Source: a virus
Virus record (IMG/VR): IMGVR_UViG_3300045988_160931
Coordinates: 46,005 to 110,004 of that record
Length of the DNA: 64,000 nucleotides
Strand: one strand, 5' to 3'
Part shown: positions 9,693-62,954 of the stretch, piece by piece
Position numbering within the stretch: position 1 is the stretch's first letter
How the letters are laid out: each line of letters starts with the position of its first letter
Program-made: the position numbers and the translations under genes
The notes under the pieces: model-generated
Database searches by the model: none
Told to the model about the DNA's origin: nothing
What the model saw: the letters and a program-made list of their open reading frames with translations, nothing else

Positions 9693-9698
9693 GAAAAT

Positions 9699-9745
9699 AA
9701 CACGCAGTTTCGGGAAGATTTCCGGGACTGCGTGTTTTGTTTTGT
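9699..9745 (+). terminator. rho-independent terminator directly after the tRNA-like fragment
   Basis: AACACGCAGT (9699-9708) pairs with ACTGCGTGTT (9727-9736), with an inner CGGGAA/TTTCCG stem. Followed by TTGTTTTG. Confidence 0.65.
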
Positions 9746-10097: not shown

Positions 10098-10126
10098 TTG
10101 ACTACTTTCGTAATATATGCTATAAT
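10098..10126 (+). promoter_or_regulatory. near-consensus sigma70-type promoter with extended -10
   Basis: TTGACT (10098-10103), 17-nt spacer ending in TGC, TATAAT (10121-10126). AAGGAGG SD and ATG at 10171 lie downstream. Confidence 0.65.
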
Positions 10127-10170
10127 AAGGTTAAGATTACAGATTTTATTATAATATAAGGAGGTAGACA

Positions 10171-15637: not shown

Positions 15638-18600
15638 TCACCCCCTAATCAGTACCTTGATGTGTGTATCATCTATCCGGGATAGTACCCGATAGCCAAC
15701 CCGTCCATCAGACCGTGTGGCGATACCGCCGGTTGTCGGGATGCAGTAATCATTGGGTCTGCAAGTGCCGTCATCAATGACGATGAGTTTGCCCATCATG
15801 CCTACAGCAGACCATTCCTGCCGCTCCGAGCGTGGCACATACTGCTTGTCCGGGTCGTAGTCCGGATTGAGTACCCAGACCTTACGAGTTGTTCCGTCCT
15901 CATCCGTGTAGTCCTCCGTCAGTAGCTCACCGTAGATATCGGTTAGGTATTGTCCCTGCCACTGATCTTCGTAACTATCACCAACTACGGACGGATTGCC
16001 GGATACAATGCCTAGAATATCATCATCTATGGATTTAGCAAGCAGTATCTTTTCACCGTCCAATTTCACGAAACGTCCACGTCTGTCCTCACCATCCGGA
16101 TTCCCGTCCATCCACTCGAAATACTCTGCATAGTCAGCGCCGGAACTGTGATAAGAACCGGAAGAGTACACACCAGCGGCAGCAGCACGGAAAGCGTTTG
16201 CCCTGGCAGATTCTGTGCCGTTACCCAGACTCAGATATGGTCCTGAAAAACTATATCCGTTATAAGCACCGAAAGCAGCACATGATGCAGTTGCAACAGT
16301 TATGTGATTTCCATAGCCGATTGACTGATTAGACGATTTCTGAACTTCTGTATACCAGCCACCACTTAGAGACGCATTCGCCTTGCACGTATTATAGTTA
16401 CCAAGCGATAATCCACCTTGTGCATCTGCTGTGACTTGGTTTCCGCTGCCGAGAGCGATATTAGCTATACCAGCAACAATGTTATCCTGACCCATTGCAG
16501 CACACTGATTTCCTTGTACCGTGTTTCTCCATCCAGACACAAATATACAGTTTCCATTAAACGCCTTGTTCTGCGAGCCAATCACAAATTGCCAGTCACC
16601 GCCACCAGCTTGGTTGTTATCAATATCATGGAAAATATAATCCTTAGAGCTGCCAGTCACAGTTTCGTTGTTGAACGTGTAACTCTTCCCGGCAGTTGTC
16701 CTACCTAACACGCCGATTTCATCCAGAGACCATGAGACGTTAGCTGCGCCGTTAAATGATTTGCCTGTATTGCCGATGGTGAGGGTACGGGCTGTATTCA
16801 ATTTTGTGGCACTGGCTACGTTACTGGTCAGAAACGCCTGGTCATAGTAGGCTGTGTCAGCACCTGTGCCTTCTGGCTCATCAGACTGTATCAGCGGCTG
16901 AGGTGTCCAGGACTTGTATTTGCCATATACGGCATAATTTCCGTTCCAGTACGTCCACGGCAGATATACCCAGACTGTATAAGTGTCGTGTGCTGTAGGT
17001 ATCACTTTGACCTTGACACTACTACAGTTGATACGATATACTGTAACGGCACACGCTTTTGTCGCCGACTCTGTGGATTGCCATCCATCCTTGATCTGAA
17101 CTTCAAAAGATGAGTTTTGGTTCGCACGACCATTTGCTCCATCGCCGCTCCATACACGTATCATGGCATTGCTGAAATTACCGGAGGATACCAGCGTGCC
17201 TAGCTTAACCCATTTTGCAGTGTTGTTGGCACCGTTTACCAAAAGAGCACTGTTTGTTATCATCGCATGTGTATGACCAGATGCCGACTTGCTGTCCAGT
17301 TCGGCTTTTACAGCTTTGTTCTGCACCGGATTTGTGGAGGTAGCAGACAAGGCACTGTCTACCGCAACCTTGGTTGCACCAGCAGCGATACCGTCCAGTT
17401 TTTTCTTATCCGCCGCAGTCATCAGACCATGTGCAGACTGTGTGGCATCGCCATAGGTGGTATCAGTGAATTTCGCATTCGCAGGTACATCTGAATTGAC
17501 GGAATGGGATATAGGCGTAGCAACACCATTCGCCGCAACGTAAACAGGCTTTGTAGCAGAGCCCACCGCAGTATTTGCACTATGTGTTACAGCCGTGGAC
17601 TTGTCTTGCTTACCGGAAATGTCTTGATGTGCTGTGATAACCGTACCCAGATCAACTACGCCGCTAGTACCCTTGCTTGCACCATTCATTTTGATGCCTG
17701 TGATAGTACCAATGTTGGATGTTTTAGCATTCCATAACGCTTTTTCTCCGGTGGTTACCAACGATACATCCGTACCGCCACTGACTGCTGCTTTGCTGGT
17801 GTACGTTGTGTCTTTTGCGCTGATTGTATTACCGCTGATCGAGATGTTTGTGCCTGCGGTCAGCTTGTCTTGCTTGCCGCTGATATCCGGAATGTCCGAA
17901 GTTAATGCTATTGTCCCACTTTTTCCCGCCGGCAAAACATAGTAATAATGCTGAGTGCCATAGGAGTTATTGGGGTCTGGTGTTATGGTATATTGGCAGC
18001 CTATATAATCTACCAAGTCCAACCGACCGGTTGATTTATCTTGCCACCCACCGAGTTTCAAACTAAAATTTCTTTTGCCATCATCGTCTCTACGGTCAAA
18101 CCCAATCTCTGCGATGTTGCGGAGTCCACCACCGTAAAATAAGGTCATAAAAGCTAGAGGAATATCACCGATATAGTCCTGGAAAGTTAATTCGCTTTGG
18201 ATTACGCCCCCAGCATTGTATATGTCTTCTTTTGTCATCGCCTCAGCCTCAGTCACATGACCCTCGTCATCAACTGCAACCTTATACATACCCTTGTTGT
18301 AGGCAGTATGTGCCGGATGCACATAGTTCTCCAACCCCGACAGCTTATCCCGTTCCGCCGTGGTGTACGGCTGCTCAACCTTGTCCAAGATGGACTTATT
18401 TTCATGGCTATGAGCTGTTTTTTGCACCGATAAAATATCAGTTTTAATCCCTTCAATTACTTCATTTTCAGATACATCAATATACGTTCCGTCACCGGTA
18501 ATGTGCAATTTCCCATCTTGATCTACGTAAAATACATCTTCTTCGCCATTTTTTATTTTTAGTAAATTTACATCTTCTGGATTTACAATAAATGTATTTG

Positions 18601-50010: not shown

Positions 50011-50084
50011 TGGTGGCAGAGTCAAGAGTCGAACTTGAATCACAAGTTTATGAGACTTGTATGTTTCCTTTACACCACTCTGCT
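50011..50084 (-). tRNA. tRNA, anticodon CAT (Met or Ile2), with unpaired A1 x C72
   Basis: Hand-folded. Acceptor AGCAGAG/CTCTGCC, T-arm TCAAG-TTCGACT-CTTGA, anticodon stem CAAGT/ACTTG with loop CTCATAA. CCA is encoded. Confidence 0.75.
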
Positions 50085-50093
50085 AATTTTATT

Positions 50094-50171
50094 TGGTCTA
50101 AGTGACAGGGTTCGAACCTGCGGCATCTTGTTCCCAAAACAAGCATTCTAACCAAACTGAATTACACTTAG
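50094..50171 (-). tRNA. tRNA-Pro (TGG)
   Basis: Acceptor CTAAGTG/CACTTAG (C1:G72), T-loop TTCGAAC, anticodon stem CTTGT/ACAAG with loop TTTGGGA. CCA is encoded. Confidence 0.85.
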
Positions 50172-50174
50172 ATT

Positions 50175-50250
50175 TGGTTGGACTAGCTGGGTTCGAACCA
50201 GCGAAATGACGGAGTCAAAGTCCGTTGCCTTACCACTTGGCTATAGTCCA
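50175..50250 (-). tRNA. tRNA-Gln (TTG)
   Basis: Acceptor TGGACTA/TAGTCCA (U1:A72), T-arm GCTGG-TTCGAAC-CCAGC, anticodon stem ACGGA/TCCGT with loop CTTTGAC. CCA is encoded. Confidence 0.85.
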
Positions 50251-50876
50251 ATATAGTATCCTAAAAATGAATACTCTATTGTGTATATGCAACCGACCTT
50301 CGCCGTACCACCCATTTACCGCACACATATTCATCCACTAGGGAGACAAGTCTGAGCGTTTGGGAGCGACCCTTGGCTTCTTGCCCCGGCATATGCCAAA
50401 TCCTATACAAGTCTGATTACTTGTAACTTTCACCCGAACCATTCAGAAGTTTCTATCATTTATATATAATCCTATAGAATATTCCTTGCACATTGGGCTA
50501 CTCGAACCAGAATCTCGCCTTATACCCTAGTTTCCTAGGTTCAGTGCAAGTAAGACTGTGTTTTGATATTTCCTAGGTTTGCATAAGTAATCAGCTTACA
50601 CCTAACTAGGATTCCACTTGTAGTATTTTACAAGTATCTATTTCCACAGCGACAAGATTCCATGATTTTGTGTACAGTAATGTCAGCACATTTGCCACCA
50701 AGGGACTGTTTTCAATCCTCAACAGTATGTTACCAATACTGCCGATTATAGCAACTAGCTTATCAGTTAATATGCTATCTACTTGATTTACAGACAAATT
50801 CTTCAGCAAGTTGGTTAGACTATCTGCACTGAGTTACTGCATACACACAATACAATATTCAATTATCAAGATACTG
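50251..50876 (-). ncRNA. 626-nt ORF-poor spacer inside the tRNA array; candidate large structured RNA
   Basis: Flanked directly by tRNA genes on the same strand. Only one 67-aa ORF in the track. Locally GC-rich blocks (line 50341: 35/60 G+C). Several 6-bp hairpins and a duplicated TTTCCTAGGTT (50531, 50569). Confidence 0.35.
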
Positions 50877-50951
50877 TGGAGCAAACAACCAGAATCGAAC
50901 TGGCATTCTCTGATTGGGAATCAAATGTTCTAACCATTGAACTATGCTTGC
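50877..50951 (-). tRNA. tRNA-Gly (CCC)
   Basis: Acceptor GCAAGCA/TGTTTGC, D-arm GTTC-AATGGTTA-GAAC, anticodon loop TTCCCAA, U73 discriminator. CCA is encoded. Confidence 0.8.
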
Positions 50952-51011
50952 ATGACAAGTCCAACACCCGAAGGTGTATAAAACTATGTTGGTCTAAAAC
51001 CAACAGTGCAG

Positions 51012-51099
51012 TGGTGGGTGAAGTAGGAATCGAACCTACGGTGTTTCTAATGTAACGGATTTACAGTCCGCCGACTTCGCCAACTGGTCACATTCACCC
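51012..51099 (-). tRNA. tRNA-Tyr (GTA), long variable arm
   Basis: 88 nt. Acceptor GGGTGAA/TTCACCC, T-arm GTAGG-TTCGATT-CCTAC, anticodon loop CTGTAAA. CCA is encoded. Confidence 0.8.
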
Positions 51100-51103
51100 A
51101 TAA

Positions 51104-51190
51104 TGGTGCCGCTAACCGGACTTGAACCGGTACGATATCGCTATCGAGGGATTTTAAGTCCCTTGTGTCTGCCTATTCCACCACAGCGGC
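51104..51190 (-). tRNA. tRNA-Leu (TAA), long variable arm
   Basis: 87 nt. Acceptor GCCGCTG/TAGCGGC, anticodon stem AGGGA/TCCCT with loop CTTAAAA. CCA is encoded. Confidence 0.85.
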
Positions 51191-51260
51191 ATTTACGACT
51201 TTCTTATGTGTCCTAAGACATTAAGCTTTCACTGCCAATCCGAAGATCTCAGAGGTCACT

Positions 51261-51337
51261 TGGTGGGCTATGTAGGACTCGAACCCACAGTCAACCGGTT
51301 ATGAGCCGGATGCTTTAACCAATTAAGCTAATAGCCC
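51261..51337 (-). tRNA. tRNA, anticodon CAT (Met or Ile2)
   Basis: Acceptor GGGCTAT/ATAGCCC, D-arm GCTT-AATTGGTTA-AAGC, anticodon loop CTCATAA. CCA is encoded. Confidence 0.8.
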
Positions 51338-51675
51338 TTATGAGTGCTTTATCGTAGCACACGCAATCTGCATTCCTAATCCAATGGAATCTAAATCGCA
51401 CGTCCAACTTTCATGGATAGTTCTGGACAAACTAGTATTCACTCGATTCGTGACAATTCCGGATAGATGAATTACACAAATCAGCTTAACATTTTTTCTT
51501 TGCATATATGCCTTGCAAGGTCTAACCCACTTCTCTACCTTGCTCACCGCAAGCCTACATTAACACTGCGATTCCCATTACCCGTTAAATCTCTACAAGA
51601 AACTACTTCTAACCGCTTGGATTTTAGCTGTTATATCTAAGTGGGCGGTATACTTTCAAATCTTGTACCCACTAT
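51338..51675 (-). ncRNA. 338-nt ORF-poor spacer inside the tRNA array; candidate structured RNA or processed spacer
   Basis: Lies between the CAT tRNA and tRNA-Lys on the same strand. Contains only a 69-aa track ORF with no SD. Confidence 0.25.
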
Positions 51676-51751
51676 TGGTGCAGTTTATGGGATTTGAACC
51701 CATGACTCTCACATTAAAAGTGTGATACTCTACCAGCTGAGTTAAAACTGC
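51676..51751 (-). tRNA. tRNA-Lys (TTT)
   Basis: Acceptor GCAGTTT/AAACTGC, anticodon stem TCACA/TGTGA with loop CTTTTAA. CCA is encoded. Confidence 0.85.
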
Positions 51752-51756
51752 ACATT

Positions 51757-51845
51757 TGGCGTAGAAGGTGGGATTCGAACCCACGGTTCCTCTCGGAATC
51801 ACTAGTTTTCAAGACTAACTCTTTCAACCACTCAGACACTTCTAC
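51757..51845 (-). tRNA. tRNA-Ser (TGA), long variable arm
   Basis: 89 nt. Acceptor GTAGAAG/CTTCTAC, T-arm GTGGG-TTCGAAT-CCCAC, anticodon loop CTTGAAA, G73. CCA is encoded. Confidence 0.8.
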
Positions 51846-51855
51846 GCAGTTTGTG

Positions 51856-51941
51856 TGGTGGGGGTAAAGGGATTTGAACCCTTATGTCACTAGGACAACG
51901 GTACCTAAAACCGTCCTGTCTGCCTATTCCAGCATACCTCC
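51856..51941 (-). tRNA. tRNA-Leu (TAG), long variable arm
   Basis: 86 nt. T-arm AAGGG-TTCAAAT-CCCTT, anticodon stem ACGGT/ACCGT with loop TTTAGGT. One A x C mismatch in the acceptor stem. CCA is encoded. Confidence 0.75.
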
Positions 51942-52868: not shown

Positions 52869-55739
52869 TTACTTTTTTCTGTATTCAGATTGTTTTTCAG
52901 TTTTATATCTTCTTCTATATTCAGCATAGCATTTTCTGCATTTTGTTGTCGTATTATCATTCTTTTTTACAAAAAACCATGTACCACATTCTTCACACTG
53001 TATTGACTTTTCAAAAGATAATCCATATTGACGAATATCTTTTAGTATCAAGTTCTTGTTGCGAAGTAAATTTCTGTAGATTTGTTTTCCAAAGCAAAAC
53101 CAAAGTACTTCTTTGTTTTTGCTTTTCTTAAAGTCATATAGATACTTAACTAAAATATCCGTGATTTCCTTTTCTGTCTTACCAGTCTTAAAAAACTCTT
53201 GTCTTATTTCTTTCGCAACGTCACCAATAACAATATCATTCTTCAAATTTGAATCCAAATTTACAGAAGATGATGCAGAAAAAACATTATCATCGACATT
53301 TGTTATCTTATACCGATATTTCCGACTCATATCTAAATATGTTAGGATAACACTATCTGTTCTATCTGCAATCGGCTTACCATTCCCATTAACTTCAATT
53401 CTGATCTTCAGTTCTGGATTTGACATCATATAAGCATAATTGATTTTCCCTATTTTTAATCCTCTACAATTGATTCTTGGATTTGGGATAATCTTATCTA
53501 ATTGATTTACTAAACTTTCATTGACAGCTTCAACCTGAGATTCCAACTTATCTTTTGCATACACAAAAAAGTGTGGCAGTTTATTTTTTGTAAACATCTT
53601 AACTTGTTCACCAAAATCATCTGTTCTTTCTGGCATATATAATGTCTTAGCAGCATCAATTGAGAAATTGGATTCAGCACATAACAATCGGATTGTATCT
53701 AGTGCAATTTTCTTTTCTTCCTCAGTACCATATTGAAAAACACCACAATTCCAAATCTTTGAGATATTATTGCTATATACTCCAATATTCCCATATGTAA
53801 ACGCAGCATTTAACCCATTATATAATACTTCATTTGTAATCTCAGAAGCATCTGCTTTACGCATATTATAATAAAGAGGAACAAAATCATATTTTTCTTT
53901 ATTTCGTTTTGCAATTTCTATAATCTTTTTATCAGACACAACAAGGAGCGTATCCCCATCCACATCGAGCTGCAAAATTTTGGTAATTAAATCATGAGTA
54001 CTTGTATACAAGCTATTTGTACAGAACCATTTCCGAATTTTATCTCTATCCTGGCATTCAATATAAGCTTTGTTTTTACGTACAGCGTGTTCAAAGAATA
54101 AATGTGGGGAGCGAAGGCAATCAAGTTCTTCATCTTTTCGAAATAGCCAACAAAATACTTCGTCATCTTTCAAAAGACCTTCTGGAACCTCAACCCCTTG
54201 AAATAACCATTGACAAAAAGCAAATAAGTCCGGCAAAACAAACGTGTATTTTCCTTTAACCTCTAACTTCCCTGATTTATATCGCTTTACCATGCTATCT
54301 TTGATCTCACGAATTTTTGATTTGATGAAATCATCATTTATCAGATTCGGATATAGAGCAATCGACTTTTGGAGATATGTTTGATTCTGATTATATGCTG
54401 TAATACCTAATGCAGCTTTTATCGTATCTACAGAAGAACATAAGGAATTTAGTTTTTTTATAGAATCACTTGCGATCTCAACAATTTCATCATCTGTAAT
54501 GTCGGATAAGGATTGCAGCATTTGATAATTGATTTTAGAATCCTTAATTCGCTCTTCTTCTGGTTTAGTATAGCAAGCGTGGCATCTATATTTTTTGAAT
54601 TTTCGCTTATAATCTTCCCATGAATCATAGTATTTATAAAGCTTAAACTGGCTTTTCGTCATAATAACCTGAATCTTTTCGGCTATAACATCATGTTCTA
54701 TCCCATAAATATCTTTTATAACAGGGGAACAGTTGAACTCTTGTATGAACGAAACGAAATCAAATACACCAAGTAATCCTTTAATCCATGGTAAACGAAC
54801 CATCCTCGTACATCCCATTTCTGGAAGCATGATTCCGCAGCCATCAGTATGAGGGATAGGAACCCTATCATGTTTTCTAGTAATTGAATAATCTTCATCA
54901 GAAATATAATCAAATTCACCATATACTTGCGTTTCAAAATCATCTACAACAATAACTCTATCAATATCGAAACCAATCCATTCATCAGTAGCAGAATTGG
55001 ATAAAGCAGTGTAGGCAAGAAATTTATTTGGATTTATTCCACCCTTTTCATTTATCTTATCAAGCGTCAATCCACACATAAGTGTTTTTTCTTTCTCTTT
55101 CCAAATTGATTCTTTCATAAAAACACATTTCTTAGTTCTGATCTGTCCGGCAGAAGATGTAAAATACACATATTTTTCTCCGTGATACATAAATCCAAAG
55201 TGAATCATATCTTTTATTAGATCATAATAATAAATTTGGACAACCATAAAAGCATCTGAAAATTCATCCTGTTTCATTCCAATTGTTCTTGTGCAAAATG
55301 AATCAAATACTGAAATCACATTTTTATTGCAGAACTCACCAGAAACAGTCTTAATCGTTCTTTCGTCTAGCGTTCGAATATGATCTTTCCCGTTTGTAAG
55401 AATATTTTGGTTTGTTTTGTTCTCCAATAAAGAAAGCAATTTGTCTTTACTCTGCTTTATTCTTTCTCTCTTATGCACGATCAGATCACTATAGAATCGG
55501 TAATCAGAAACTAGATTAAAAATATCATCTGGGACATCCAATTCTTCTTTTACCATTGATTTGAATTCTTTTTCATGATACCCTTGTTTCTCAACAGAGG
55601 TTTCTATCAATTCAAGGCGTGTTTTTAGATATTTTCGTTCCTGCCGAAGTTTATGGTTCAAAATATGTAATCTTCTTTCTCGATTGCTATAAAAATTACC
55701 TGTGTCTACCGATAAAATCTTACACTGCTTATCAAGCAC
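52869..55739 (-). CDS. YonO / RdRP-like single-chain two-barrel RNA polymerase with a C-terminal zinc ribbon
   Basis: Ordered motifs match the RdRP/YonO family: FTSSAGQIRTKKCVFM, PHTDGCGIMLP, RLPWIKGLLGVF, MTKSQFKLYKY, INYQMLQSL, CLRSPHLFFEH, and catalytic LDVDGDTLLVV (DxDGD). C-terminal CEECG...CRKC. Confidence 0.75.
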   Translation of the reverse strand: MLDKQCKILSVDTGNFYSNRERRLHILNHKLRQERKYLKTRLELIETSVEKQGYHEKEFKSMVKEELDVPDDIFNLVSDYRFYSDLIVHKRERIKQSKDKLLSLLENKTNQNILTNGKDHIRTLDERTIKTVSGEFCNKNVISVFDSFCTRTIGMKQDEFSDAFMVVQIYYYDLIKDMIHFGFMYHGEKYVYFTSSAGQIRTKKCVFMKESIWKEKEKTLMCGLTLDKINEKGGINPNKFLAYTALSNSATDEWIGFDIDRVIVVDDFETQVYGEFDYISDEDYSITRKHDRVPIPHTDGCGIMLPEMGCTRMVRLPWIKGLLGVFDFVSFIQEFNCSPVIKDIYGIEHDVIAEKIQVIMTKSQFKLYKYYDSWEDYKRKFKKYRCHACYTKPEEERIKDSKINYQMLQSLSDITDDEIVEIASDSIKKLNSLCSSVDTIKAALGITAYNQNQTYLQKSIALYPNLINDDFIKSKIREIKDSMVKRYKSGKLEVKGKYTFVLPDLFAFCQWLFQGVEVPEGLLKDDEVFCWLFRKDEELDCLRSPHLFFEHAVRKNKAYIECQDRDKIRKWFCTNSLYTSTHDLITKILQLDVDGDTLLVVSDKKIIEIAKRNKEKYDFVPLYYNMRKADASEITNEVLYNGLNAAFTYGNIGVYSNNISKIWNCGVFQYGTEEEKKIALDTIRLLCAESNFSIDAAKTLYMPERTDDFGEQVKMFTKNKLPHFFVYAKDKLESQVEAVNESLVNQLDKIIPNPRINCRGLKIGKINYAYMMSNPELKIRIEVNGNGKPIADRTDSVILTYLDMSRKYRYKITNVDDNVFSASSSVNLDSNLKNDIVIGDVAKEIRQEFFKTGKTEKEITDILVKYLYDFKKSKNKEVLWFCFGKQIYRNLLRNKNLILKDIRQYGLSFEKSIQCEECGTWFFVKKNDNTTTKCRKCYAEYRRRYKTEKQSEYRKK

Positions 55740-56177: not shown

Positions 56178-57062
56178 TTATTGAGATAATAATTGCGATT
56201 TCTTTGCTTCTATCTCATTGCAATAATAAGATTCACCTTCTAAAATTAAATTTTTAAGATTATCTCTTTTCTTATACTCACAAACAAAATACGACTGTGA
56301 AAGATAGATACTTTGTGTTTGCATTACATTCGTTACTTTAGTCACATAGAAAATATTTAACTCTTCCAGAATATCCATTATGTCTTTTACATAATATTCG
56401 GAAAGTCCGGTGTTATTCGAAAATTCCGGATAATACATTAAGAATACTTCTGGACACATCAAAATAGCATTATCACATTTTGCTGGTCTTGCTGGAATTT
56501 CTTTGCGAACACAAGCCAACTCCAACAATATCTTTTGACAACTTTTATTTCTATTAAGACAATATCTTCTTATTGACAGAACTTCATCGACAGAAATAAG
56601 AATATACCCACCATTTACATTAAATTCAAGTTCTCCATACCCGATTGAGTATCCATCATATTCTGAGATATATGATGGATATAGTGAAAACTGAATTAAA
56701 TCCTTCGGTTTGGCATTTTCAAAGTCTCGCCAGCTACACCAAATATAATTATTCTTTACAAGCCATCTTAATGCCTTAATAACTCTTTCGTTAATTGCAT
56801 TTGAGTTTCTTCTTTGTTTTCTACCGAAAAAACAAATTGCATCTGATAACGAAAAGTCAGAAAACATTTGCTCGAAATTTTGTTTTACATTTAAGTGAAG
56901 ATATATGTATACAGATAACACATCCTCGAAGAATTTATATCCAAATCGCAATCCTCTACAGCAATCGTCAACCAATTTCTTACCAACTTTAATCGTGTGT
57001 TCTTCATGGTAATTCATTTTTCTCCAGTATTTTTCACTCATTAAAATCACCGCCAATTTCAC
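56178..57062 (-). CDS. RepA_N-like / winged-helix DNA-binding protein, paralog B
   Basis: 294 aa. Shares motifs at corresponding positions with the upstream ORF (ALRWLVKNNYIWC vs SITWLIENKFLKC; IFYVTKVTN vs IFYVKELKTN). Confidence 0.5.
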   Translation of the reverse strand: MKLAVILMSEKYWRKMNYHEEHTIKVGKKLVDDCCRGLRFGYKFFEDVLSVYIYLHLNVKQNFEQMFSDFSLSDAICFFGRKQRRNSNAINERVIKALRWLVKNNYIWCSWRDFENAKPKDLIQFSLYPSYISEYDGYSIGYGELEFNVNGGYILISVDEVLSIRRYCLNRNKSCQKILLELACVRKEIPARPAKCDNAILMCPEVFLMYYPEFSNNTGLSEYYVKDIMDILEELNIFYVTKVTNVMQTQSIYLSQSYFVCEYKKRDNLKNLILEGESYYCNEIEAKKSQLLSQ

Positions 57063-57924
57063 ATTTCACAATACCATCAAAATATTTTTTCAATTTTTGT
57101 TCTTTACTATTGATTTCATTTTTATAATATTCTTCTCCAATAATAATTGTATTTGTATTAAAGTGTCTAGCGCAGAAATTCGATACAATATGTTGCTTAC
57201 GAATAAAAAAATCCTTTGTTGCATTAGTTTTTAATTCTTTTACATAAAAGATATCAATCGATGTTAAAACAGTCAACGCTTTTTTTACAGCCTTTGTAGA
57301 AATTCTCAACTCATCTGCTATTTTAGAATAATAGAAGTTATAAGCTTCCGGTCTATCATCAGAATAGTATTGAACCCCGTTTCCCATTTCTTTTGCGTTA
57401 TTTTGACATTTTCTTAATGGGATTAGTTTTCGAAAAAATACAAGTACTCCCAAAGTCCTAATAATATCTGCTTTATTTTCTTTGCAAAAATAATGGGCAT
57501 TCATTAGTTCATCATAATAAATAGGAACGTAAGAATAGTTTCTCCCAGCAATATTTGATGTAACATCATACTCACAACAATTTGAATTTTTGACTTTTTC
57601 AAAGTCATTGTCGCATTTCAAGAATTTGTTTTCGATAAGCCATGTAATAGAATTTCTAATTCTTGCAGTTATCCCTTCTGGCACTCTATTCGGCACTCTT
57701 AACAATTGAGTAGTTATTTGATTATTGCTGATCGTTGTACCATAAAAGAAAGATTCAGCATTTTTATACTTCGGATTAAAACGTCTTACATGATTTTCAA
57801 TTATCATAAGGTACGCTGATATTGTAATGCAAAAATCACACTCCTTATCCTCGCTCGCAGCTTTAATAAGCGAAGATGGTACTTTATAAAAACTTGATTC
57901 AACCTCGGTCATTTTTCTAATCAT
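57034..57924 (-). CDS. RepA_N-like replication-initiator-type protein, paralog A
   Basis: 296 aa. The N-terminal SSFYKVPSSLIKAAS... resembles the RepA_N FYK(L/V)P motif. Overlaps paralog B by 29 nt. Confidence 0.5.
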   Translation of the reverse strand: MIRKMTEVESSFYKVPSSLIKAASEDKECDFCITISAYLMIIENHVRRFNPKYKNAESFFYGTTISNNQITTQLLRVPNRVPEGITARIRNSITWLIENKFLKCDNDFEKVKNSNCCEYDVTSNIAGRNYSYVPIYYDELMNAHYFCKENKADIIRTLGVLVFFRKLIPLRKCQNNAKEMGNGVQYYSDDRPEAYNFYYSKIADELRISTKAVKKALTVLTSIDIFYVKELKTNATKDFFIRKQHIVSNFCARHFNTNTIIIGEEYYKNEINSKEQKLKKYFDGIVKCEIGGDFNE

Positions 57925-58186
57925 AGCGATCTCCTCTCCAATCTAAAAACGGTATACCCAATGTCAAAATTCAAACAAATTTAGATAGCCTAAACCCAAA
58001 GCACAGTTCTCAGAAGGACTACAAATCACAAAAAGCAATCCTACTTATAATATACGATTTTTAATATAAAAAGTAAAAAGCATAATCAAATTTTATTTCC
58101 TTTGATAGTCCATTGGTAATCGTTTTATCGAGAAAATGACATTGAAATTCACTTTTCATTTTTGTAAACCGTTTGGTTGACACATA

Positions 58187-58272
58187 TTATTTACTTTACT
58201 TTTTTGTAAAGCTGAAATCGTTAAAATAGCCGATTTTGAGAAAATTACCTTACAAAAAAGTAAAGTAAATAA
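58187..58272. repeat. perfect 23-nt inverted repeat, arms 40 nt apart
   Basis: TTATTTACTTTACTTTTTTGTAA (58187-58209) and TTACAAAAAAGTAAAGTAAATAA (58250-58272). Further TTTGTAAA/TTTACAAA copies at about 58161 and 58283. Confidence 0.85.
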
Positions 58273-58317
58273 TAAAAAATCACTTTACAAAAATGTGCCG
58301 AAAAAAGCCGTATACTA

Positions 58318-58362
58318 TATATAAGAAAGAATATATATACAATATATAAGAAAGAATATATA
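58318..58362 (+). repeat. 20-nt perfect direct repeat, period 25
   Basis: TATATAAGAAAGAATATATA at 58318-58337 and 58343-58362. Confidence 0.85.
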
Positions 58363-60815
58363 CACTATAGAAGAAGATTATACGCACGTTGCCGCCAAAC
58401 ATAGAAAATCCAGTACTAGAGAAATCTAATACTGGATTGATTTTAGATATGATATTTTTCTAATTGAGTGTATCTCCAATAATAATATAAGCTAATATAG
58501 TTTATGCTTCTTATAGATTAGATAGATAAGATTATATTTTATATTGAGTAACTACTTTGTGTTAGTACTGATTAGTATTGAGATTATCTTTCTTGTATCT
58601 TAATACTGCATCATAATTTATCTGACTACAATTTTGGTATAATCAGATATTGAGTATTCTGTATTGACTATAGTAAGTTCTATATTAAAATCTCTAAATT
58701 GGATATGCTATTAATTAGCTATGTTATGTATTGTATTAGTTAGAGTTAATTTATGCTATTTCTTTTATGCTTCGCTACGCTACGCTGTCATTTCGCTACG
58801 CTCAATGATTGACTTTCATTCACTACGTTCATTCCAGTCAAATATATTACTTATGGATTATTGATTATTGATTATTTGGATATTAGATTATGTTTGATTG
58901 TCTTATTTAAGCAAATAAATTTTCAATTTGAATATGCTTTAGATAATATGTATTATGTTATATGATTCAATATTTATCTTAATTTTTGATTGCGTAATCT
59001 AATATCAATTTTAAGCTATCTAGAATTGATTCTAAGAGACTTTACTATTTCACCCTCAATTATACTATTTTTCTTATAGCGTCTTAAAACGGCTTTTAGA
59101 TGCCTTAGAATCGATATTGAGATTTTACACTATTTGATTATTGTGGTTTTAATGCTTTTATATTATAATCTTGCAGAATGAAATCATTATGATTTTATAA
59201 AATCAAATATAAGCTGCCAGAAGTCTTTCTAAGACGTTTTGCAGAGAATACTATAATCTAAGCCTGCCAATATAGCAAATTGCCTTAGAGATGATTCTGA
59301 TAGCAATTCAGATGCTAATAACAGCACTAATATGATTCGAATAGTAGAATTGATAGAGTAGAATATCTAAAATATTGGATATGCTTATTTAAGCTCACAA
59401 ACGCTAGAGTTTATCAATGTACAAGAACTTCTACAATTAGGGTAGTAAACTATACCCCTACATATTTGCAGTTGCAGATAACTCGATCATCATCGATGTT
59501 CTAGCGCTTAAAATCGATTCTGGGTTTAGATGTTTGATTTTGGTCTGTGCATACTTGTATATTATTCCAGAACTTTTTTATGATATGAAGCTATGTTAGG
59601 GTCGAACTGATAGACCTTGCAAATTTCGATTAAGCAATACCAGCTAATCAAGAGCAATATAATTTTTGTATGTGATTTTCAAATATGATATTCTGAAAAT
59701 ACAGTCTTAGCCTGAGTTAGACATCTAAACACAAGATTGGAGATTTTTAAGATTAGAGCTTTTAATGACTATGATAGTTTTAGACTCCGATTTTTGATTT
59801 AAGATTTTTTAGATTATACTTTTATTGCAGCTTAATGGGTACCTCCATAGAATGAAATTTATTTTTCTTCAGAAAATAGAGTACCTTAATTTTAGATACA
59901 GTGTTTATTTTATAACGAATAGAGGTTTTATTTTTCCGATAAATACGAAATTGCACGGGTATAACGTGAAAATATCCCAAAATAAGCAAAATTGCGGCAT
60001 ATGTAAAATATCACGCAAATGCGTTATTTTTTAGATTTTGGTTTCCAATTGAAATAATTGAATAAGTACTTAAAATCGTTGAAAATAAGTACCATCTGAA
60101 TGATTTTCTTCGAAATTTCGGTATATTTTATTTTTGATATTGGGGTAGGATTCGTAGTATATTTTGTAGAAAATTCAAACGAATATTTTTAATAATTCGT
60201 ATGGTGTCCAGAGCAATTAAAATCAGAAAATCAAATTTTGAGAATTTTGATTTAATCAAATTTAATCAGAATTGTTTGAAGGAAATCGGGAACGACTGAA
60301 GAGATGAACATAGCAAAAATGAGGAACGGAAAATGGGGTGAAAAACAGGGTAAAAATAGGGCGTTTTTAGGTGTTGAAAGTTACCAATTAAATGGTAATA
60401 AAACGGATGCGATTTTGAGTGAGATTATTTTGTTTTCATTTTTAACTATAATATTATGATTTGAATTTTGATTATGGTATTTTTGATTGAATCAGAATGA
60501 TAGAAATATTGAATGTGAAAAAATTGAATTTAGATTAGGGCGTGGATGAGCATTGTTTGGGTGCGATTTGAGTGTTACATGATAGCATCTGAATGCTGCA
60601 TAATGGCAGGGGAGGTCTGGCAACGAGTATAGAGAGAATTTCGGGAGGATAATTTGGACTAATTTTGAGTTGTTTTTGGGGTTAACCAGCAGAATGATTT
60701 AAGTCAATTTGAGAGTATTTTTTTTGTTGTGTTGGGGATTAGATTTGTTTTGATTTGTTATATTAATGTCGTGATTTTTGGCGAAATTGCGCTGTTTTTT
60801 GAATTTAGGAGAGAT

Positions 60816-60950
60816 GGGGATTGGGATGTGAATTGGGATTCGGGAATGTGGTAGGGGAGTGGGGCAAGAGGGGATGGAGGATGGGGAGATGAGAGTGAGA
60901 AATGAGATTTTTGAGTATGGGCGGTGTGTGGAACACGTATGGGGCTGGGG
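60816..60950 (+). repeat. cluster of at least 11 G-runs (3 or more G) on the + strand
   Basis: GGGG 60816, GGG 60823, 60835, 60842, GGGG 60854, 60861, 60870, 60883, GGG 60919, GGGG 60941, 60947. Only 2 C between 60806 and 60900. Confidence 0.85.
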
Positions 60951-61031
60951 TAAAAATGGAATGTTGAAAAAATTGTAAAATAGCCCCGGTTAAGATTGCA
61001 ACCGCCGGAAACAGCGACGGGAGAAAAAATG

Positions 61032-61069
61032 CGAATGTGAAAAAACCGATTTTTTTCACATTCGTTTTT
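61032..61069. terminator. bidirectional rho-independent terminator
   Basis: 14-bp stem CGAATGTGAAAAAA (61032-61045) / TTTTTTCACATTCG (61051-61064). A6 before, T5 after. Confidence 0.7.
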
Positions 61070-61257
61070 GCTAGTTTTGGGATATTATAAATATAAAATT
61101 TTCGTGAATTCAAATAGTTTCACGTGAAACATTTCTAAAATATTTCTGAGTCAATAGAAAATCTATATCTTGATTGCCGATCGCCTGGTATCGTTATAGT
61201 GATATGAGAACGATACCATACAAGCAGATCAGAAAACCGCTGCCGGTATTGGGATAT

Positions 61258-61292
61258 AAAAAAAGAGTGTAAAGCGAAATAACTTTACACTC
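61258..61292 (-). terminator. rho-independent terminator for leftward transcription
   Basis: 10-bp stem GAGTGTAAAG (61265-61274) / CTTTACACTC (61283-61292). The A7 run at 61258-61264 reads as T7 on the minus strand. Confidence 0.7.
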
Positions 61293-61317
61293 GATTGACT
61301 ACAATTTAACAATAGTT

Positions 61318-61507
61318 TATCACTAAACAATAATATATCCGCCGTAGTCCTCACTAGTCATCACTAAATTATCACGTATATTTCACACAGTTTTTACATT
61401 CCTATCACAAGGCTATCACGTATCAAATACTAACCCATCACTATTCCATCATTAGTCCAACACATACTTAACACTTATATATCACATACTTATCACAAAA
61501 CTATCAC
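61318..61507 (+). repeat. array of TATCAC / ATCAC motifs, partly phased at 11 bp
   Basis: TATCAC at 61318, 61370, 61403, 61414, 61480, 61491 and 61502. ATCAC at 61360 and 61437. Confidence 0.85.
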
Positions 61508-61827
61508 ATTAAGCACAGCGCCAACCATCAATAATTATATAACGCTGTTATACATACATTCCGAAACAGAACCCGAAAACCAGAAACAAGATATCATCTA
61601 TATAGATCTATCCAGCGTCAACCACTATCCAGAGCCAGAACCGGGGAACTATTGCCAACCAGATGTGCCCACATGAGACCCACCACATGCCGCATATACG
61701 CTAATATCGCCACATATACGCCCATATACCCTTCACACTTATATATAAAGTATAGGGCTTATATAAGCCTCTGAGAAGCCAATACAAGCCCTTGCCTACT
61801 ATATAAGAGTATAGCAGTATACCGATT

Positions 61828-62115
61828 TTATCTGCCGATATTATCCGCTTTTTGGGGGGATGCCGCCGCCGCCATGGCTGCTAGCTCCGCCGTACTATCG
61901 TCTGGCACATACTCTAGTATATCGCCAGGTTGGCATCCTAGCAATGCGCATATTTTGTCAATCGTTACCATATTAAAAATCATAGGGTCATTTTTGTGTA
62001 TTTTGGTTACTACTGCACCGGGCATAATCTTTTTATTTTTCAATGTTGAAGGACTCAGCCCTTTATTTTTCAAAGTATCTTGCACATTTTCCTTAAAAAT
62101 AATAATCAAAATCAC
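61828..62115 (-). CDS. XRE-family helix-turn-helix transcriptional regulator
   Basis: KENVQDTLKNKGLSPSTL...VTIDKICALLGCQPGDILEYVPD matches the short Cro/CI-type HTH family (...LCxxLxCxPGDLLEY). Confidence 0.8.
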   Translation of the reverse strand: MILIIIFKENVQDTLKNKGLSPSTLKNKKIMPGAVVTKIHKNDPMIFNMVTIDKICALLGCQPGDILEYVPDDSTAELAAMAAAASPQKADNIGR

Positions 62116-62954
62116 ACCCTTGCTTTATTTTATTCTGTTTTATACCTCAATTTAGGTATATTGCACTAAAAAAAGAAATATTGCATACCTAAGTTTAGGT
62201 ATAATGCCTATTGCAATTATACCTAAAGCGTGGTATACTATAATCACAGAAAGCGAAAAGAAACCACAACAGAAAGCAAGCCAGAGGCTGCAAAGAGAAT
62301 CGACAAATAACGGCAATGATAGCCAGAAGGGAGGGAACCACAGTACAACAGAAAACGGGCTTACAACCCAAAACCCACCGGGGCAATGTTCCCCATAGCA
62401 CACCACAGGAAACAGAAGCAAGATCAAAGAAAAGCATCTGAAATAGTTTCCGGTATTGCATACAATTTCTAATATTATCGCTATTTCTCCATTATCCGCT
62501 ATCTATATAGCACCGGATAAATAGTTTCCGATATTTCAAAATTACTATGGATACCGCCACAAAACAATATTTCAATAGCATTTCAATTCAAAATTGTTTC
62601 TAGTTCCGCACTGCATCTTGACAATTTTATAATTTTTCAAATTCCAAAACGGCAGCACCGGGAACGAACCCGGAAGCGTTTGAGTGCGCCATGACGGCTA
62701 GGGAATACCCCAAAACCACCAGCGAATAACACAAAATAACGCCATGACCACGTTGCCCATTATGAGATCTTGAAAAATAGCCCTGTAGCCTTGGGGCGAT
62801 ATAATACCGCTGCTGTCGCTAGTCATTTTTACTAGCCCACTAGGGCTTATTTTAGCCACTAGAAATCGTGGTATCTTAATATCATTTGATATTATACCAC
62901 ATTTCAAAAGAAAATGCAAGTAAACAAAATGTGAATATTATGGAGGTAATAACT

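What the first reader, a model, noticed from the sequence alone, without database searches (positions are those of the whole stretch)
57925..61827. 3.9-kb ORF-free, stop-saturated tract with a strand-composition flip, in an otherwise tightly packed phage
Almost nothing is coding between the start of the leftward RepA_N-like gene (57924) and the stop of the XRE gene (61828).
- The track shows only two ORFs of 60 aa or more. One is a TTG-start 69-mer (59825..60034). The other is a Pro/His/Leu low-complexity reading of a G-tract (60805..61113).
- TAA, TAG and TGA all occur in all six frames, so no single stop reassignment rescues coding.
- The + strand is C-depleted from about 58.4 to 61.0 kb. 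My hand counts per 60-nt line are: 58861 G9/C2, 60421 G8/C2, 60661 G14/C4.
- It becomes G-depleted at 61.3-61.8 kb: 61381 G4/C17, 61441 G1/C16.
- The flip sits at two terminators (61032-61069 bidirectional, 61258-61292 leftward).

This pattern would fit two convergent, heavily transcribed non-coding units whose RNAs are both C-poor. Other explanations are a replication/partition control region served by the adjacent Rep-like genes, or former genes destroyed by strand-specific C-to-T deamination. The last would also create the excess of TAG/TAA/TGA and of TTTAGAT-type words seen here.
Basis: partly seen in the sequence, partly recalled or inferred. Interest (0 to 1): 0.8.

Follow-up and report, generated by a model that had tools for sequence, protein, structure and literature searches.

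The report
Phage DNA-packaging start region, mirror-skewed
The gene-free 3.9 kb is real and is most likely where this SPbeta-like gut phage cuts its DNA to start packaging; its mirror-image base composition also brackets the experimentally mapped cut sites or DNA ends of two relatives and lies in the gap that holds SPbeta's.

Summary
Window 57925-61827 has no credible gene. GC skew reaches +0.76 at about 60.65 kb and -0.57 at about 61.3 kb; the rest of the window ranges from -0.48 to +0.35. Stop codons are not in excess: 6.1-7.9% of codons against 8.2% expected from composition.

The window is a temperate SPbeta-like phage with a YonO-type RNA polymerase. The tract occupies the slot between an XRE gene and the polymerase operon. 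That slot holds the mapped pac site of SPbeta and the 264-bp terminal repeat of phage Perkons.

SPbeta, Goe12, Perkons and the distant Enterocloster phage PMBT24 show the same mirror-image pattern at that site. On each side of the cut, the strand running 5'->3' toward it is G/T-rich and C-poor. In PMBT24 the PhageTerm pac site has a 215-nt C-free run ending 2 nt before it and a 218-nt G-free run starting 316 nt after it.

I therefore read the tract as a composite packaging-start region:
- a 430-bp conserved core (60906-61335) with facing terminators;
- two fast-evolving skewed arms;
- a 14 x 11-bp phased repeat array;
- a 2-kb AT-rich spacer;
- a lineage-specific operator block.

No Rfam family, pseudogene remnant or DnaA box is present. 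No virion-read data were available, so the cut site is inferred. Why the arms are skewed is unknown.

The parts
57925..58397 (-). Lineage-specific control region of the operon of two winged-helix proteins plus the YonO-type RNA polymerase. It has a promoter-like site at 57967-57940 and the operator-like motif ACTTTACTTTTTTGTAA at 58151-58167 and 58193-58209 (+) and 58250-58266 (-). The last two lie in a 25-nt perfect inverted repeat, 58185-58209 / 58250-58274. Three 25-bp tandem repeats lie at 58300-58382.
   Evidence: Repeats. The motif gives 5 hits in the window against 1.15 expected, 3 of them here. MFE z-scores are -7.5 to -9.1 at 58150-58299. The block is non-homologous in L014, whose winged-helix genes are only 40% identical.
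58407..58438 (-). Terminator-like hairpin on the minus strand, at the left border of the part of the tract shared by all alleles.
   Evidence: Conserved in all five aligned sequences.
58398..60560 (.). AT-rich spacer (GC 24-34%, C about 11% on the + strand) with no ORF and no known function. A conserved CGCTACG-rich block lies at 58778-58835. Short hairpins and palindromes lie at 59100-59720, for example AAATCATNATGATTT at 59182-59196.
   Evidence: Divergence from L001 is 0.14-0.27 against 0.183 at 4-fold sites of the RNA polymerase gene, so roughly neutral. Single-sequence MFE z is about 0. Alignment-fold z is -3.4 to -6.3 at 59100-59700, but there are only 11 compensatory pairs on each strand. 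The called 51-aa ORF 60304-60459 is interrupted in L001. No Rfam hit.
60561..60905 (+). Left skewed arm, hypervariable part: G 34.5%, C 6.4%, T 33.9% on the + strand. The skew itself begins near 60150. It exists as at least three divergent alleles with recombinants.
   Evidence: Window against L004 shows 22.8% divergence plus 34 gap columns, where the RNA polymerase 4-fold sites show 0 differences in 297. L020 is a recombinant. C stays at 3.8-6.5% in all alleles. Of the 57 G runs of 4 or more in the window, 10 lie at 60561-60960. Canonical G4 motifs occur only here, at 60816-60890, and only in the window allele.
60906..61335 (.). Conserved core between the two arms, the predicted site of terminase cutting or of the terminal repeat. 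It holds a 33-nt invariant block at 60908-60940, a hairpin at 61185-61218 that is not kept in the L001 allele, and a promoter-like site at 61113-61084 (-).
   Evidence: 1.6% divergence from L004 and 25% from L001/L014. Invariant runs. MFE z is -2.7 to -6.8 and alignment-fold z is -4 to -8.6. Its size matches the roughly 425 nt between the skew patches that holds the 264-bp terminal repeat of Perkons.
61031..61065 (+). Intrinsic terminator closing the G-rich plus-sense arm. It also scores on the minus strand in the window allele.
   Evidence: The stem and the plus-strand T-tail are kept in L001 and L014, the minus-strand T-tail is not.
61265..61292 (-). Intrinsic terminator closing the minus-sense arm downstream of the XRE gene.
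   Evidence: Conserved in all alleles.
61336..61827 (-). Right skewed arm: G 11%, C 28% on the + strand, so G-rich on the minus strand. It is allele-specific. Homology with the L001/L014 allele stops at 61335.
   Evidence: (21.7% divergence from L004).
61359..61512 (+). Array of 14 tandem 11-bp units (consensus TATCACAnnnn), all in one orientation. It looks like a helically phased protein-binding array.
   Evidence: Nine ATCAC in 189 bp against about 0.17 expected, eight of them in strict 11-bp register. Autocorrelation is 0.53 / 0.52 / 0.47 at lags 11 / 22 / 33 against a median of 0.29. TRF. The L014 allele carries TTTCAAC repeats instead, and the L001 contig ends inside them.
61828..62115 (-). 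XRE/Cro-type HTH gene bordering the tract, transcribed toward it. It is the positional counterpart of SPbeta yonR, which is transcribed away from its gap.
   Evidence: Pfam HTH_26, E = 4.4e-12. SPbeta map.
56178..57924 (-). Two paralogous proteins (296 aa, 57034-57924; 294 aa, 56178-57062) bordering the tract. They have a predicted dual winged-helix fold and unknown function.
   Evidence: Paralogy: 29% identity, E = 4e-17. No family hit. wHTH Pfam hits in remote homologues. AF2 pLDDT 85.5. Only weak fold matches.

Best explanation
The tract is the non-coding junction region of an SPbeta-like temperate phage. This is where terminase opens replicated DNA to start packaging, so it is also where the ends of the virion DNA lie. 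It sits between the early arm (XRE gene and onward) and the arm that runs from two winged-helix proteins through the phage's own YonO-type RNA polymerase to the structural genes.

Its anatomy, left to right:
- an operator and promoter block for the winged-helix and polymerase operon;
- a 2-kb AT-rich spacer;
- a G/T-rich, C-poor arm;
- a 430-bp conserved core closed on both sides by facing terminators;
- a second arm that is G/T-rich and C-poor on the opposite strand, carrying a phased 11-bp repeat array.

What is shown:
- the gene-order match with SPbeta, and a skew flip in the gap that holds the mapped SPbeta pac site;
- the mirror composition, which brackets the terminal repeat of Perkons and the PhageTerm pac site of PMBT24;
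- the terminators, the repeats and the allelic hypervariability of the arms.

What is inferred: that cutting occurs in or at the edge of the core (60.9-61.35 kb).

Also inferred is a meaning for the mirror arrangement. After a cut in the core, the strand that ends 3' at each new DNA end would be the G/T-rich, C-poor one. Such a strand, and its complement, cannot form G-C hairpins when single-stranded. I propose that the arms serve end processing, by one or more of three routes: structure-free single strands for annealing or RecA loading after injection, recognition arms for the small terminase, or R-loop-prone transcription toward the cut. Deamination of the exposed strand would reinforce the bias. 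The 11-bp array is probably a binding platform for a DNA-bending protein.
For: Identity of the phage:
- The YonO-type RNA polymerase at 52869-55739 is 40-45% identical to SPbeta-group and D-1873 homologues.
- Relatives carry YonJ- and YonG-type genes. The terminase large subunit and portal are identified, and a tyrosine integrase lies at 8334-9524.
- The order XRE, gap, small genes, polymerase, RNA-gene gap, structural genes, terminase, portal mirrors SPbeta.

Mapped sites in relatives:
- SPbeta's genome opening and pac site lies between yonR (XRE) and yonP-yonO, from restriction maps and read pile-ups (bioRxiv 10.1101/2021.11.22.469490; PMC8270828).
- Perkons (polymerase 38.5% identical) has a 264-bp terminal repeat defined by PhageTerm (PMC13245101). 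It lies inside a roughly 2.1-kb ORF-free gap next to its polymerase operon.
- Position 1 of the PMBT24 record is its PhageTerm pac site (PMC11035940).

Skew flip, all in polymerase-sense orientation:
- Window: +0.65, then the core, then -0.84.
- Perkons: +0.70 ending about 210 nt before the repeat, and -0.79 starting at the repeat's inner end. These are the maximum and minimum of a 19-kb stretch.
- SPbeta: +0.46 then -0.72. Goe12: +0.72 then -0.74, although its left flank is not homologous to SPbeta's.
- PMBT24: skew +1.00 then -1.00, with a 215-nt C-free run ending 2 nt before the pac site and a 218-nt G-free run starting 316 nt after it.
- All three alleles of the window lineage keep the flip.
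- PMBT24 also has about 3 kb around pac with only ORFs of 69 aa or less annotated.

Other support: the tract is non-coding in every relative.
Against: - No virion-read, restriction or RNA data exist for this phage, so the cut site is inferred from gene order and composition only.
- There is no sequence similarity to the SPbeta, Goe12 or Perkons regions.
- The tract is 3.9 kb against 0.95 kb in SPbeta, and about 2 kb of it (58.4-60.5 kb) has no assigned role.
- The XRE gene is co-directional here but divergent in SPbeta.
- In SPbeta the positive patch is modest and the largest positive skew of the 20-kb locus lies elsewhere.
- No flip was seen at the record junctions of CB473P1 and TR-TP1, whose starts are not known termini.
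- Facing terminators and the 11-bp array are not found in Perkons, PMBT24 or SPbeta.
- Contig ends scatter across the whole tract rather than piling at one point.
- Depletion in the window is not absolute: the longest C-free run is 64 nt against a maximum of 67 in shuffles.
Confidence: 0.62

Rival explanations
1. The tract is a replication origin and/or partition site served by the two adjacent winged-helix proteins. On this reading the repeats are iterons or a centromere, the AT-rich block is the unwinding element, and the skew flip marks a switch of replication direction.
For: Three 25-bp direct repeats and a 25-nt inverted repeat lie immediately upstream of the genes and co-vary with them. 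The 14 x 11-bp phased array resembles 11-bp plasmid centromere repeats such as R1 parC; that comparison rests on my own knowledge and was not tested. The predicted dual winged-helix fold gives weak Foldseek hits to RepE54 and Rep-iteron complexes (TM 0.30-0.39). The cumulative GC skew of the window has its minimum near 58 kb.
Against: No Pfam, NCBIfam or PHROG Rep family is matched, RepA_N included. No fold match reaches E <= 0.001. There are no DnaA boxes in the tract. SPbeta and Perkons show the same skewed architecture at this position in their maps without such genes next to it, and PMBT24 shows it at its pac site. L014 keeps the arms and core while its winged-helix genes and their upstream block are replaced. 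The cumulative-skew minimum coincides with the switch of gene orientation.
Confidence: 0.15
2. The arms are two convergent non-coding RNA genes whose C-poor products act in their own right, for example as regulators, protein sponges or immunity RNAs, unrelated to packaging.
For: A same-strand terminator follows each G-rich-sense arm within 45-130 nt, and the plus-strand T-tail is conserved. The arms are allelic and hypervariable, as specificity determinants can be. An sRNA, ncr1052, is known in the SPbeta yonR-yonP gap (PMC2965217).
Against: No Rfam match even at E <= 10. MFE z is about 0 across the arms. No conserved promoter was identified. The primary sequence of the arms is free to vary and only the composition is kept. 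The same composition flanks mapped DNA ends in Perkons and PMBT24, where no facing terminators are found.
Confidence: 0.12
3. The tract is tolerated spacer DNA. On this reading the skew is a pure mutational by-product: deamination of C and A on a strand that is often single-stranded near DNA ends or in transcription bubbles, with no function of its own.
For: Divergence is close to the 4-fold-site rate (0.14-0.27 against 0.183). The G+T-rich strand composition matches what single-strand deamination produces in vertebrate mitochondrial DNA (established knowledge). The two most skewed segments are also the fastest evolving.
Against: PMBT24 has 215- and 218-nt runs with no C or no G at all, at 47-50% G, which mutation bias alone should not reach. 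G is enriched about two-fold, not merely C depleted. The substitution spectrum in the arm is not directional. L020 shows that allele exchange by recombination, not only local mutation, produces the divergence. 60150-60560 is strongly skewed yet conserved.
Confidence: 0.09
4. The tract consists of former protein genes destroyed by strand-specific C-to-T deamination.
For: C depletion with T excess on the + strand.
Against: Stops are at or below the compositional expectation. Six-frame X-masked translations give 0 PHROG hits. There is no blastn hit in 50,697 phage records. Only 17% of indels are multiples of three and substitutions show no codon periodicity. No relative has intact genes. The gaps that hold the packaging site or DNA ends in SPbeta and Perkons, and the DNA around the PMBT24 pac site, are likewise free of substantial ORFs.
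Confidence: 0.02

Closest known systems
SPbeta genome-opening / pac region (yonR-yonP intergenic, Bacillus subtilis phage SPbeta and Goe11-14)
   Same: The position in the gene order is the same: XRE-type gene, gap, small genes and YonO polymerase, RNA-gene gap, structural genes, terminase, portal. The gap is non-coding and has a positive-then-negative GC-skew flip in polymerase-sense orientation. An sRNA is known inside the gap.
   Different: The SPbeta gap is 0.95 kb against 3.9 kb here, and there is no detectable sequence similarity. yonR is divergent, whereas the XRE gene here is co-directional. SPbeta has no winged-helix gene pair, no 11-bp array and no facing terminators.
Terminal-repeat region of Psychrobacillus phage Perkons (264-bp direct terminal repeat, PhageTerm)
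   Same: An ORF-free gap of about 2.1 kb lies next to the YonO-type polymerase operon. The skew maximum and minimum of the 19-kb stretch examined bracket a roughly 425-nt neutral stretch that contains the repeat, close to the 430-nt core here. On both ends the 3'-ending strand is the G-rich one.
   Different: It has defined ends rather than a pac/headful mode. It has no XRE gene, no terminators and no phased array, and no sequence similarity.
pac region of Enterocloster phage PMBT24 (PhageTerm; proposed family Kielviridae)
   Same: The mirror arms are the most extreme known case: a 215-nt C-free run ends 2 nt before the pac cut and a 218-nt G-free run starts 316 nt after it. About 3 kb around pac carries only tiny ORFs. 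The G-rich arm has the same GGGGAT / GAATGTGG flavour as 60800-60900 here.
   Different: Its polymerase is only 25.7% identical and lies 9.6 kb from pac, with minus-strand genes between. The phage is virulent, and the depletion is absolute there but partial here.
Tripartite pac site of Bacillus phage SPP1 (pacL-pacC-pacR), and lambda cos or the T7 concatemer junction as general models
   Same: The logic is the same: a central cleavage site flanked by two recognition or architecture arms. In T7 there is also a link between the phage RNA polymerase stopping at the junction and DNA maturation. This comparison rests on established knowledge and was not tested here.
   Different: Those sites are about 0.2-0.3 kb, lie in or next to the terminase genes, and are not known for mirror C-free / G-free composition. 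The SPbeta review reports no similarity to SPP1 pac.
Iteron-type plasmid origins (mini-F RepE, pPS10 RepA) and 11-bp centromere arrays (R1 parC)
   Same: Direct repeats lie next to genes for dual winged-helix proteins, and the second array has 11-bp helical phasing.
   Different: There is no sequence membership in any Rep family, only weak fold similarity, and no DnaA boxes. Relatives keep the arms and core without these genes.

Membership tests
SPbeta-like packaging-start / terminus region | Lies in the non-coding gap between the XRE/early arm and the YonO-type RNA polymerase operon | tested here: met
   Gene order compared with the SPbeta map and the Perkons map.
SPbeta-like packaging-start / terminus region | Terminase cut or read-start peak, or terminal repeat, in virion DNA | not testable with these tools
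   No reads are available. The evidence exists only for SPbeta and the Goe phages, Perkons and PMBT24.
SPbeta-like packaging-start / terminus region | Mirror GC-skew flip with the 3'-ending strand G/T-rich on both sides of the cut. I propose this feature here; it is not an established criterion. | tested here: met
   Window +0.65 / -0.84, the extremes of the 64 kb. The same pattern is found in SPbeta, Goe12, Perkons and PMBT24.
SPbeta-like packaging-start / terminus region | Sequence similarity to a mapped pac or terminal-repeat region | tested here: not met
   Only compositional low-score hits to SPbeta, Goe12 and Perkons. The mapped regions of SPbeta and Perkons are also dissimilar to each other.
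Any described structured RNA family (Rfam 15) | Covariance-model match | tested here: not met
   No match in the tract at gathering thresholds. Only miRNA-type noise appears at E <= 10.
Novel large structured RNA | Thermodynamic stability and compensatory base-pair changes, stronger on one strand | tested here: inconclusive
   Single-sequence z is about 0 over 58450-60900. Alignment-fold z is -3.4 to -6.3 at 59100-59700, but there are 11 compensatory pairs on each strand and effectively only two lineages.
Iteron-type theta replication origin | Adjacent Rep initiator of a recognised family | tested here: not met
   No Pfam, NCBIfam or PHROG Rep hit. Foldseek gives no E <= 0.001, and RepE54 matches reach only TM 0.30-0.39.
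Iteron-type theta replication origin | Direct-repeat iterons plus DnaA boxes and an AT-rich unwinding element | tested here: inconclusive
   Repeats are present: 3 x 25 bp and 14 x 11 bp. AT-rich DNA is present. No DnaA box with up to 1 mismatch lies in the tract, against 27 elsewhere in the window.
   No such hit even at E <= 10. Members of the 45-sequence family hit only generic winged-helix models.
Decayed protein-coding genes | Residual homology, a codon-like substitution or indel pattern, or intact orthologues in relatives | tested here: not met
   0 PHROG hits in six frames. Seven of 42 indels are multiples of three and the maximum periodicity chi-square is 5.4 over 41 windows. The tract is ORF-free in all relatives.
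G-quadruplex element | Four G runs of 3 or more with short loops, conserved | tested here: not met
   Motifs occur only at 60816-60890 in the window allele. None is found with loops of 9 nt or less in the L004, L001 or L014 alleles.

The most novel reading that the evidence does not exclude
Mirror-image C-free / G-free arms are a functional and so far undescribed component of the packaging start or DNA ends in phages that carry a YonO-type single-chain RNA polymerase (SPbeta-like phages and 'Kielviridae'). They would place a hairpin-free, G/T-rich 3'-ending strand at every new DNA end. Possible uses are end protection, RecA- or annealing-driven circularisation, small-terminase recognition, or R-loop formation by the lid-less polymerase. 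The flip would then serve as a sequence-only predictor of the cut site.
Probability: 0.3. Interest if true: 0.7.

Novelty: new variant of a known kind. Interest (0 to 1): 0.5.

Why it matters
Packaging sites of SPbeta-like phages are mapped to an intergenic gap but not understood; the SPbeta review states that the mechanism remains to be elucidated. This work found one compositional architecture at the packaging region of four experimentally anchored phages, of which SPbeta and Goe12 are close relatives of each other, and in this uncultured gut phage.

If that holds more widely, it has three uses:
- It predicts pac sites or termini from sequence alone, which helps to orient and close metagenomic phage genomes.
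- It defines a concrete, testable element in the genetically tractable SPbeta: replace an arm and measure packaging.
- It explains why assemblies of these phages tend to break here.

It also removes a false lead. The tract is neither damaged genes nor a recognisable RNA family.

Tried and rejected
- Known RNA family: Rfam at gathering thresholds and at E <= 10 found nothing in the tract.
- Large structured RNA: single-sequence z-scores are flat. The alignment-fold signal at 59.1-59.7 kb has few compensatory pairs and no strand preference. I left this as inconclusive.
- 'More conserved than the flanking genes': I first inferred this from L014, then withdrew it. L014 is a mosaic, with polymerase 4-fold-site divergence of 0.017 against tract divergence of 0.11-0.28, and the tract evolves at about the 4-fold-site rate.
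- Hypermutation signature in the hypervariable arm: the A<->G changes run in both directions at equal per-site rates. A diversity-generating retroelement is unlikely, because no second copy of the arm exists within 57.8-62.2 kb and C is almost never introduced. I did not search the window for a reverse transcriptase.
- Conserved G-quadruplex: present only in the window allele.
- Pseudogenes: rejected.
- DnaA-box origin: none in the tract.
- B. subtilis Chi (AGCGG) clusters in the SPbeta G-rich strand: none seen by eye in the printed sequence.
- Prophage end or att site: the integrase lies at 8.3-9.5 kb, and relatives continue with homologous DNA on both sides.
- Genome-collection hit L022 ('Elusimicrobia' MAG): a chance 21-mer.
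- Attempts to find the other end of the 107-kb IMG/VR contig failed.
- BUCT083, BUCT082, CB473P1, D-1873 and TR-TP1 gave no usable test, because their record starts are not mapped termini.
- Facing terminators as a shared feature: not found in Perkons or PMBT24.

Full report
1. THE OBSERVATION

All three stop codons occur in every frame.

The tract is not enriched in stops. Stops are 6.1-7.9% of codons per frame against 8.2% expected from base composition. The longest open stretch is 108 aa, within the range of shuffles (87 +/- 15).

The composition flip is a strong outlier. In 300-nt windows the rest of the 64 kb has GC skew -0.117 +/- 0.16, with a range of -0.48 to +0.35. The tract reaches +0.758 at 60651 (C 5%, G 36%) and -0.571 at 61301 (G 7%). 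Other intergenic gaps of the window lie between -0.21 and +0.16.

The two terminators at the flip are found by the scan: 61031-61065 on both strands and 61292-61265 on the minus strand.

The tract recurs in at least a dozen independent human-gut metagenome contigs, so it is not an assembly artefact.

2. WHAT THE WINDOW IS

The 956-aa ORF at 52869-55739 (-) is a YonO-type single-chain RNA polymerase. It hits Pfam RdRP and phrog_8308, and is 40-42% identical to SPbeta-group YonO, 45% to Clostridium phage D-1873 and 38.5% to Psychrobacillus phage Perkons.

Downstream on the same strand lie ten tRNA genes with a ROOL RNA among them. Next come YonJ- and YonG-type genes (Pfam hits on the relatives' products), the terminase large subunit and the portal.

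The other arm carries a RecD2-type helicase, NrdD, dUTPase, ThyX, an RNA ligase and a tyrosine integrase.

This is a temperate SPbeta-like phage of a low-GC gut Firmicute. The order XRE gene, gap, small genes, polymerase, RNA-gene gap, structural genes, terminase, portal is that of SPbeta.

3. RELATIVES AND RATE OF CHANGE

No INPHARED phage matches the tract at the DNA level.

Metagenome and IMG/VR contigs give four lineages: the window type (L018, L020), the L004/L008 type, L019/L021, and the L001/L014 type.

I calibrated against 4-fold degenerate sites of the polymerase gene.
- Window against L001: 0.183 at 4-fold sites and 0.14-0.27 in the tract. The tract as a whole drifts at about the neutral rate.
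- L014 initially looked as if the tract were better conserved than its flanks. It is a mosaic, with a window-like polymerase, an L001-like tract and replaced winged-helix genes.
- Window against L004: 0 differences in 297 4-fold sites and at most 2% divergence through most of the tract. Two segments stand out: 22.8% (plus 34 gap columns) at 60561-60905 and 21.7% at 61336-61827.

These two segments are the skewed arms. They exist as divergent alleles, L020 is a recombinant between two of them, and every allele keeps C at 3.8-6.5%. The substitution spectrum shows no directional hypermutation.

Indels are mostly not multiples of three (7 of 42) and substitutions have no codon periodicity. X-masked six-frame translations hit no PHROG family. 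The tract is non-coding in all relatives.

4. ANATOMY

(a) 57925-58397 is a lineage-specific control block. It holds a 25-nt perfect inverted repeat built from an operator-like motif present three times, and three 25-bp tandem repeats. It is replaced together with the winged-helix genes in L014.

(b) 58398-60560 is an AT-rich spacer that begins at a minus-strand terminator-like hairpin. It has no conserved ORF, no Rfam hit and flat folding z-scores. An alignment-fold signal at 59.1-59.7 kb rests on few compensatory pairs and shows no strand preference.

(c) 60561-60905 is the G/T-rich, C-poor hypervariable arm. The skew itself starts near 60150.

(d) 60906-61335 is a conserved core. It has a 33-nt invariant block, the two facing terminators and stable hairpins.

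(e) 61336-61827 is the opposite arm. It carries 14 tandem 11-bp TATCAC units in strict helical register. The L014 allele has TTTCAAC repeats instead, and the 107-kb IMG/VR contig ends inside them.

5. WHAT IT IS

In SPbeta the genome-opening point and pac site lie between yonR (XRE) and yonP-yonO. This rests on restriction maps and on read pile-ups in four isolates.

In Perkons a 264-bp direct terminal repeat defined by PhageTerm sits inside a roughly 2.1-kb ORF-free gap next to the polymerase operon.

I turned all loci so that the polymerase operon reads left to right and found the same pattern at these mapped sites.
- Perkons: a positive-skew patch (+0.70) ends about 210 nt before the repeat and a negative patch (-0.79) begins at its inner end. 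These are the maximum and minimum of the 19-kb stretch.
- SPbeta: +0.46, then -0.72.
- Goe12: +0.72, then -0.74, although its left flank is not homologous to SPbeta's.
- Window: +0.65, then the 430-nt core, then -0.84.

The distant Enterocloster phage PMBT24 (polymerase 25.7% identical) is the clearest case. Its authors set record position 1 at the PhageTerm pac site. That position is preceded by a 215-nt run without a single C, ending 2 nt before it, and followed after 316 nt by a 218-nt run without a single G. About 3 kb around it holds only tiny ORFs.

In each of these phages the strand running 5'->3' toward the mapped cut, repeat or gap is the G/T-rich, C-poor one. So it is the strand that ends 3' at the DNA end. 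I checked this directly on the Perkons record coordinates.

I conclude, with confidence about 0.6, that the tract is this phage's packaging-start or terminus region and that cutting occurs in or at the edge of 60906-61335.

6. HOW IT MAY WORK

Shown: the position in the gene order, the mirror arms, the core, the terminators, the phased array and the allelic arms.

Inferred: the cut site, and the role of the arms.

A strand made only of G, A and T, like its complement, cannot form G-C hairpins. Resected ends or displaced strands would therefore stay unstructured. G/T-rich single strands are also the substrates RecA prefers; this is established knowledge and was not tested here. That would favour annealing or circularisation of the terminally redundant DNA.

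The arms could also be recognition arms for the small terminase, as in the pacL-pacC-pacR layout of SPP1. In the window lineage they could be transcribed toward the cut and stopped by the facing terminators.

Single-strand deamination of C and A, as on the mitochondrial heavy strand, would push composition the same way and may add to the fast evolution of the arms. The absolute C-free and G-free runs of PMBT24, and the two-fold G enrichment here, argue that bias alone is not enough.

DNA ends are recombinogenic, which may explain the mosaic alleles. The arms may also contribute to the many contig breaks in the tract, though the break points scatter across its whole length.

7. RIVALS

Origin or partition site. 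The two flanking paralogues belong to no described family. Remote homologues show generic winged-helix hits. A confident model (pLDDT 85.5) matches RepE-type initiators only weakly. The tract has no DnaA boxes, and phages without such genes share the arms. An origin in the left 0.5 kb is not excluded.

Free-standing non-coding RNAs. This is compatible with the terminators. It is not supported by structure, by conserved promoters or by the comparative data.

Pure mutational by-product, and decayed genes. These are discussed above. The decayed-gene reading is rejected.

8. COMPARISON AND NOVELTY

The region is a member, by position, of a known kind: the SPbeta-type pac or terminus gap. It is much larger than in SPbeta and has extra parts, namely the allelic arms, the facing terminators, the 11-bp array and the 2-kb spacer.

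The shared mirror composition around mapped cut sites is not mentioned in the papers I could search. It is the new element.

It rests on four anchored phages, of which SPbeta and Goe12 are close relatives of each other, plus this lineage. For SPbeta and Goe12 the cut is known only to lie within the gap, not at the flip itself. Two other records with unmapped starts did not show the flip. It therefore needs a systematic survey.

Interest is moderate. The strange-looking tract has an ordinary identity, but it exposes a testable and possibly general signature of packaging sites.

Noticed in passing
window 50011-51941 (-), ROOL at 50275-50857: A ROOL RNA (RF03087, 288 bits) sits inside an array of ten tRNA genes, between the YonO-type polymerase gene and the late/structural operon. 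[quoted passage not shown] ROOL may therefore be the first product of the phage polymerase's late transcript.
   Followed up: partly
Enterocloster phage PMBT24, OQ326496.2 positions 99746-99960 and 317-534 (loci L115, L114): A 215-nt C-free run (47-50% G) and a 218-nt G-free run flank the PhageTerm-defined pac site at record position 1. My text search of the PMBT24 paper found no mention of this.
   Followed up: yes
window 60561-60905 and 61336-61827; loci L004, L020, L021, L001, L014: Two segments differ by about 22% between phages whose polymerase genes are identical at all 297 four-fold sites. L020 is a recombinant between two alleles inside the first segment.
   Followed up: yes
window 56178-57924 (-): Two paralogous proteins of about 295 aa with a confidently predicted dual winged-helix fold (pLDDT 85.5). 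They have 47 remote homologues in the 1.8-billion-protein library, belong to no described family and have no significant PDB fold match.
   Followed up: partly
window 58778-58835: A block invariant in all lineages and rich in CGCTACG-type repeats (CGCTACGCTGTCATTTCGCTACGCTCAATGATTG ... CATTCACTACGTTCATTCC). It lies in a stretch that folds less stably than shuffles (z = +2.3 to +2.7), so it may be a protein-binding site.
   Followed up: no
window 16000-18000, inside ORF 15638-21289 (-): A GC-rich island (47-48% against about 33% for the window) lies within the 1883-aa protein that carries a Peptidase_G2 / pre-neck-appendage-like domain. It may be a horizontally acquired receptor-binding module.
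   Followed up: no
window 8334-9524 (+) and gap 9525-10170: A tyrosine integrase is followed by a 0.65-kb gap, the likely attP region. This shows that the 3.9-kb tract is not the attachment site.
   Followed up: no
window 57957-62440 (contig ends of L001, L009-L013, L016, L018-L021): Thirteen metagenome contig ends map inside or just beside the tract. The two longest contigs (107 kb and 90 kb) end at about 61.40 and 61.56 kb, in the repeat-bearing arm.
   Followed up: partly
L022 (DHVG01000013.1, 'Elusimicrobia' MAG) 6963-6983: An exact 21-mer match to the conserved CGCTACG block turned out to be a chance hit with no surrounding similarity.
   Followed up: yes
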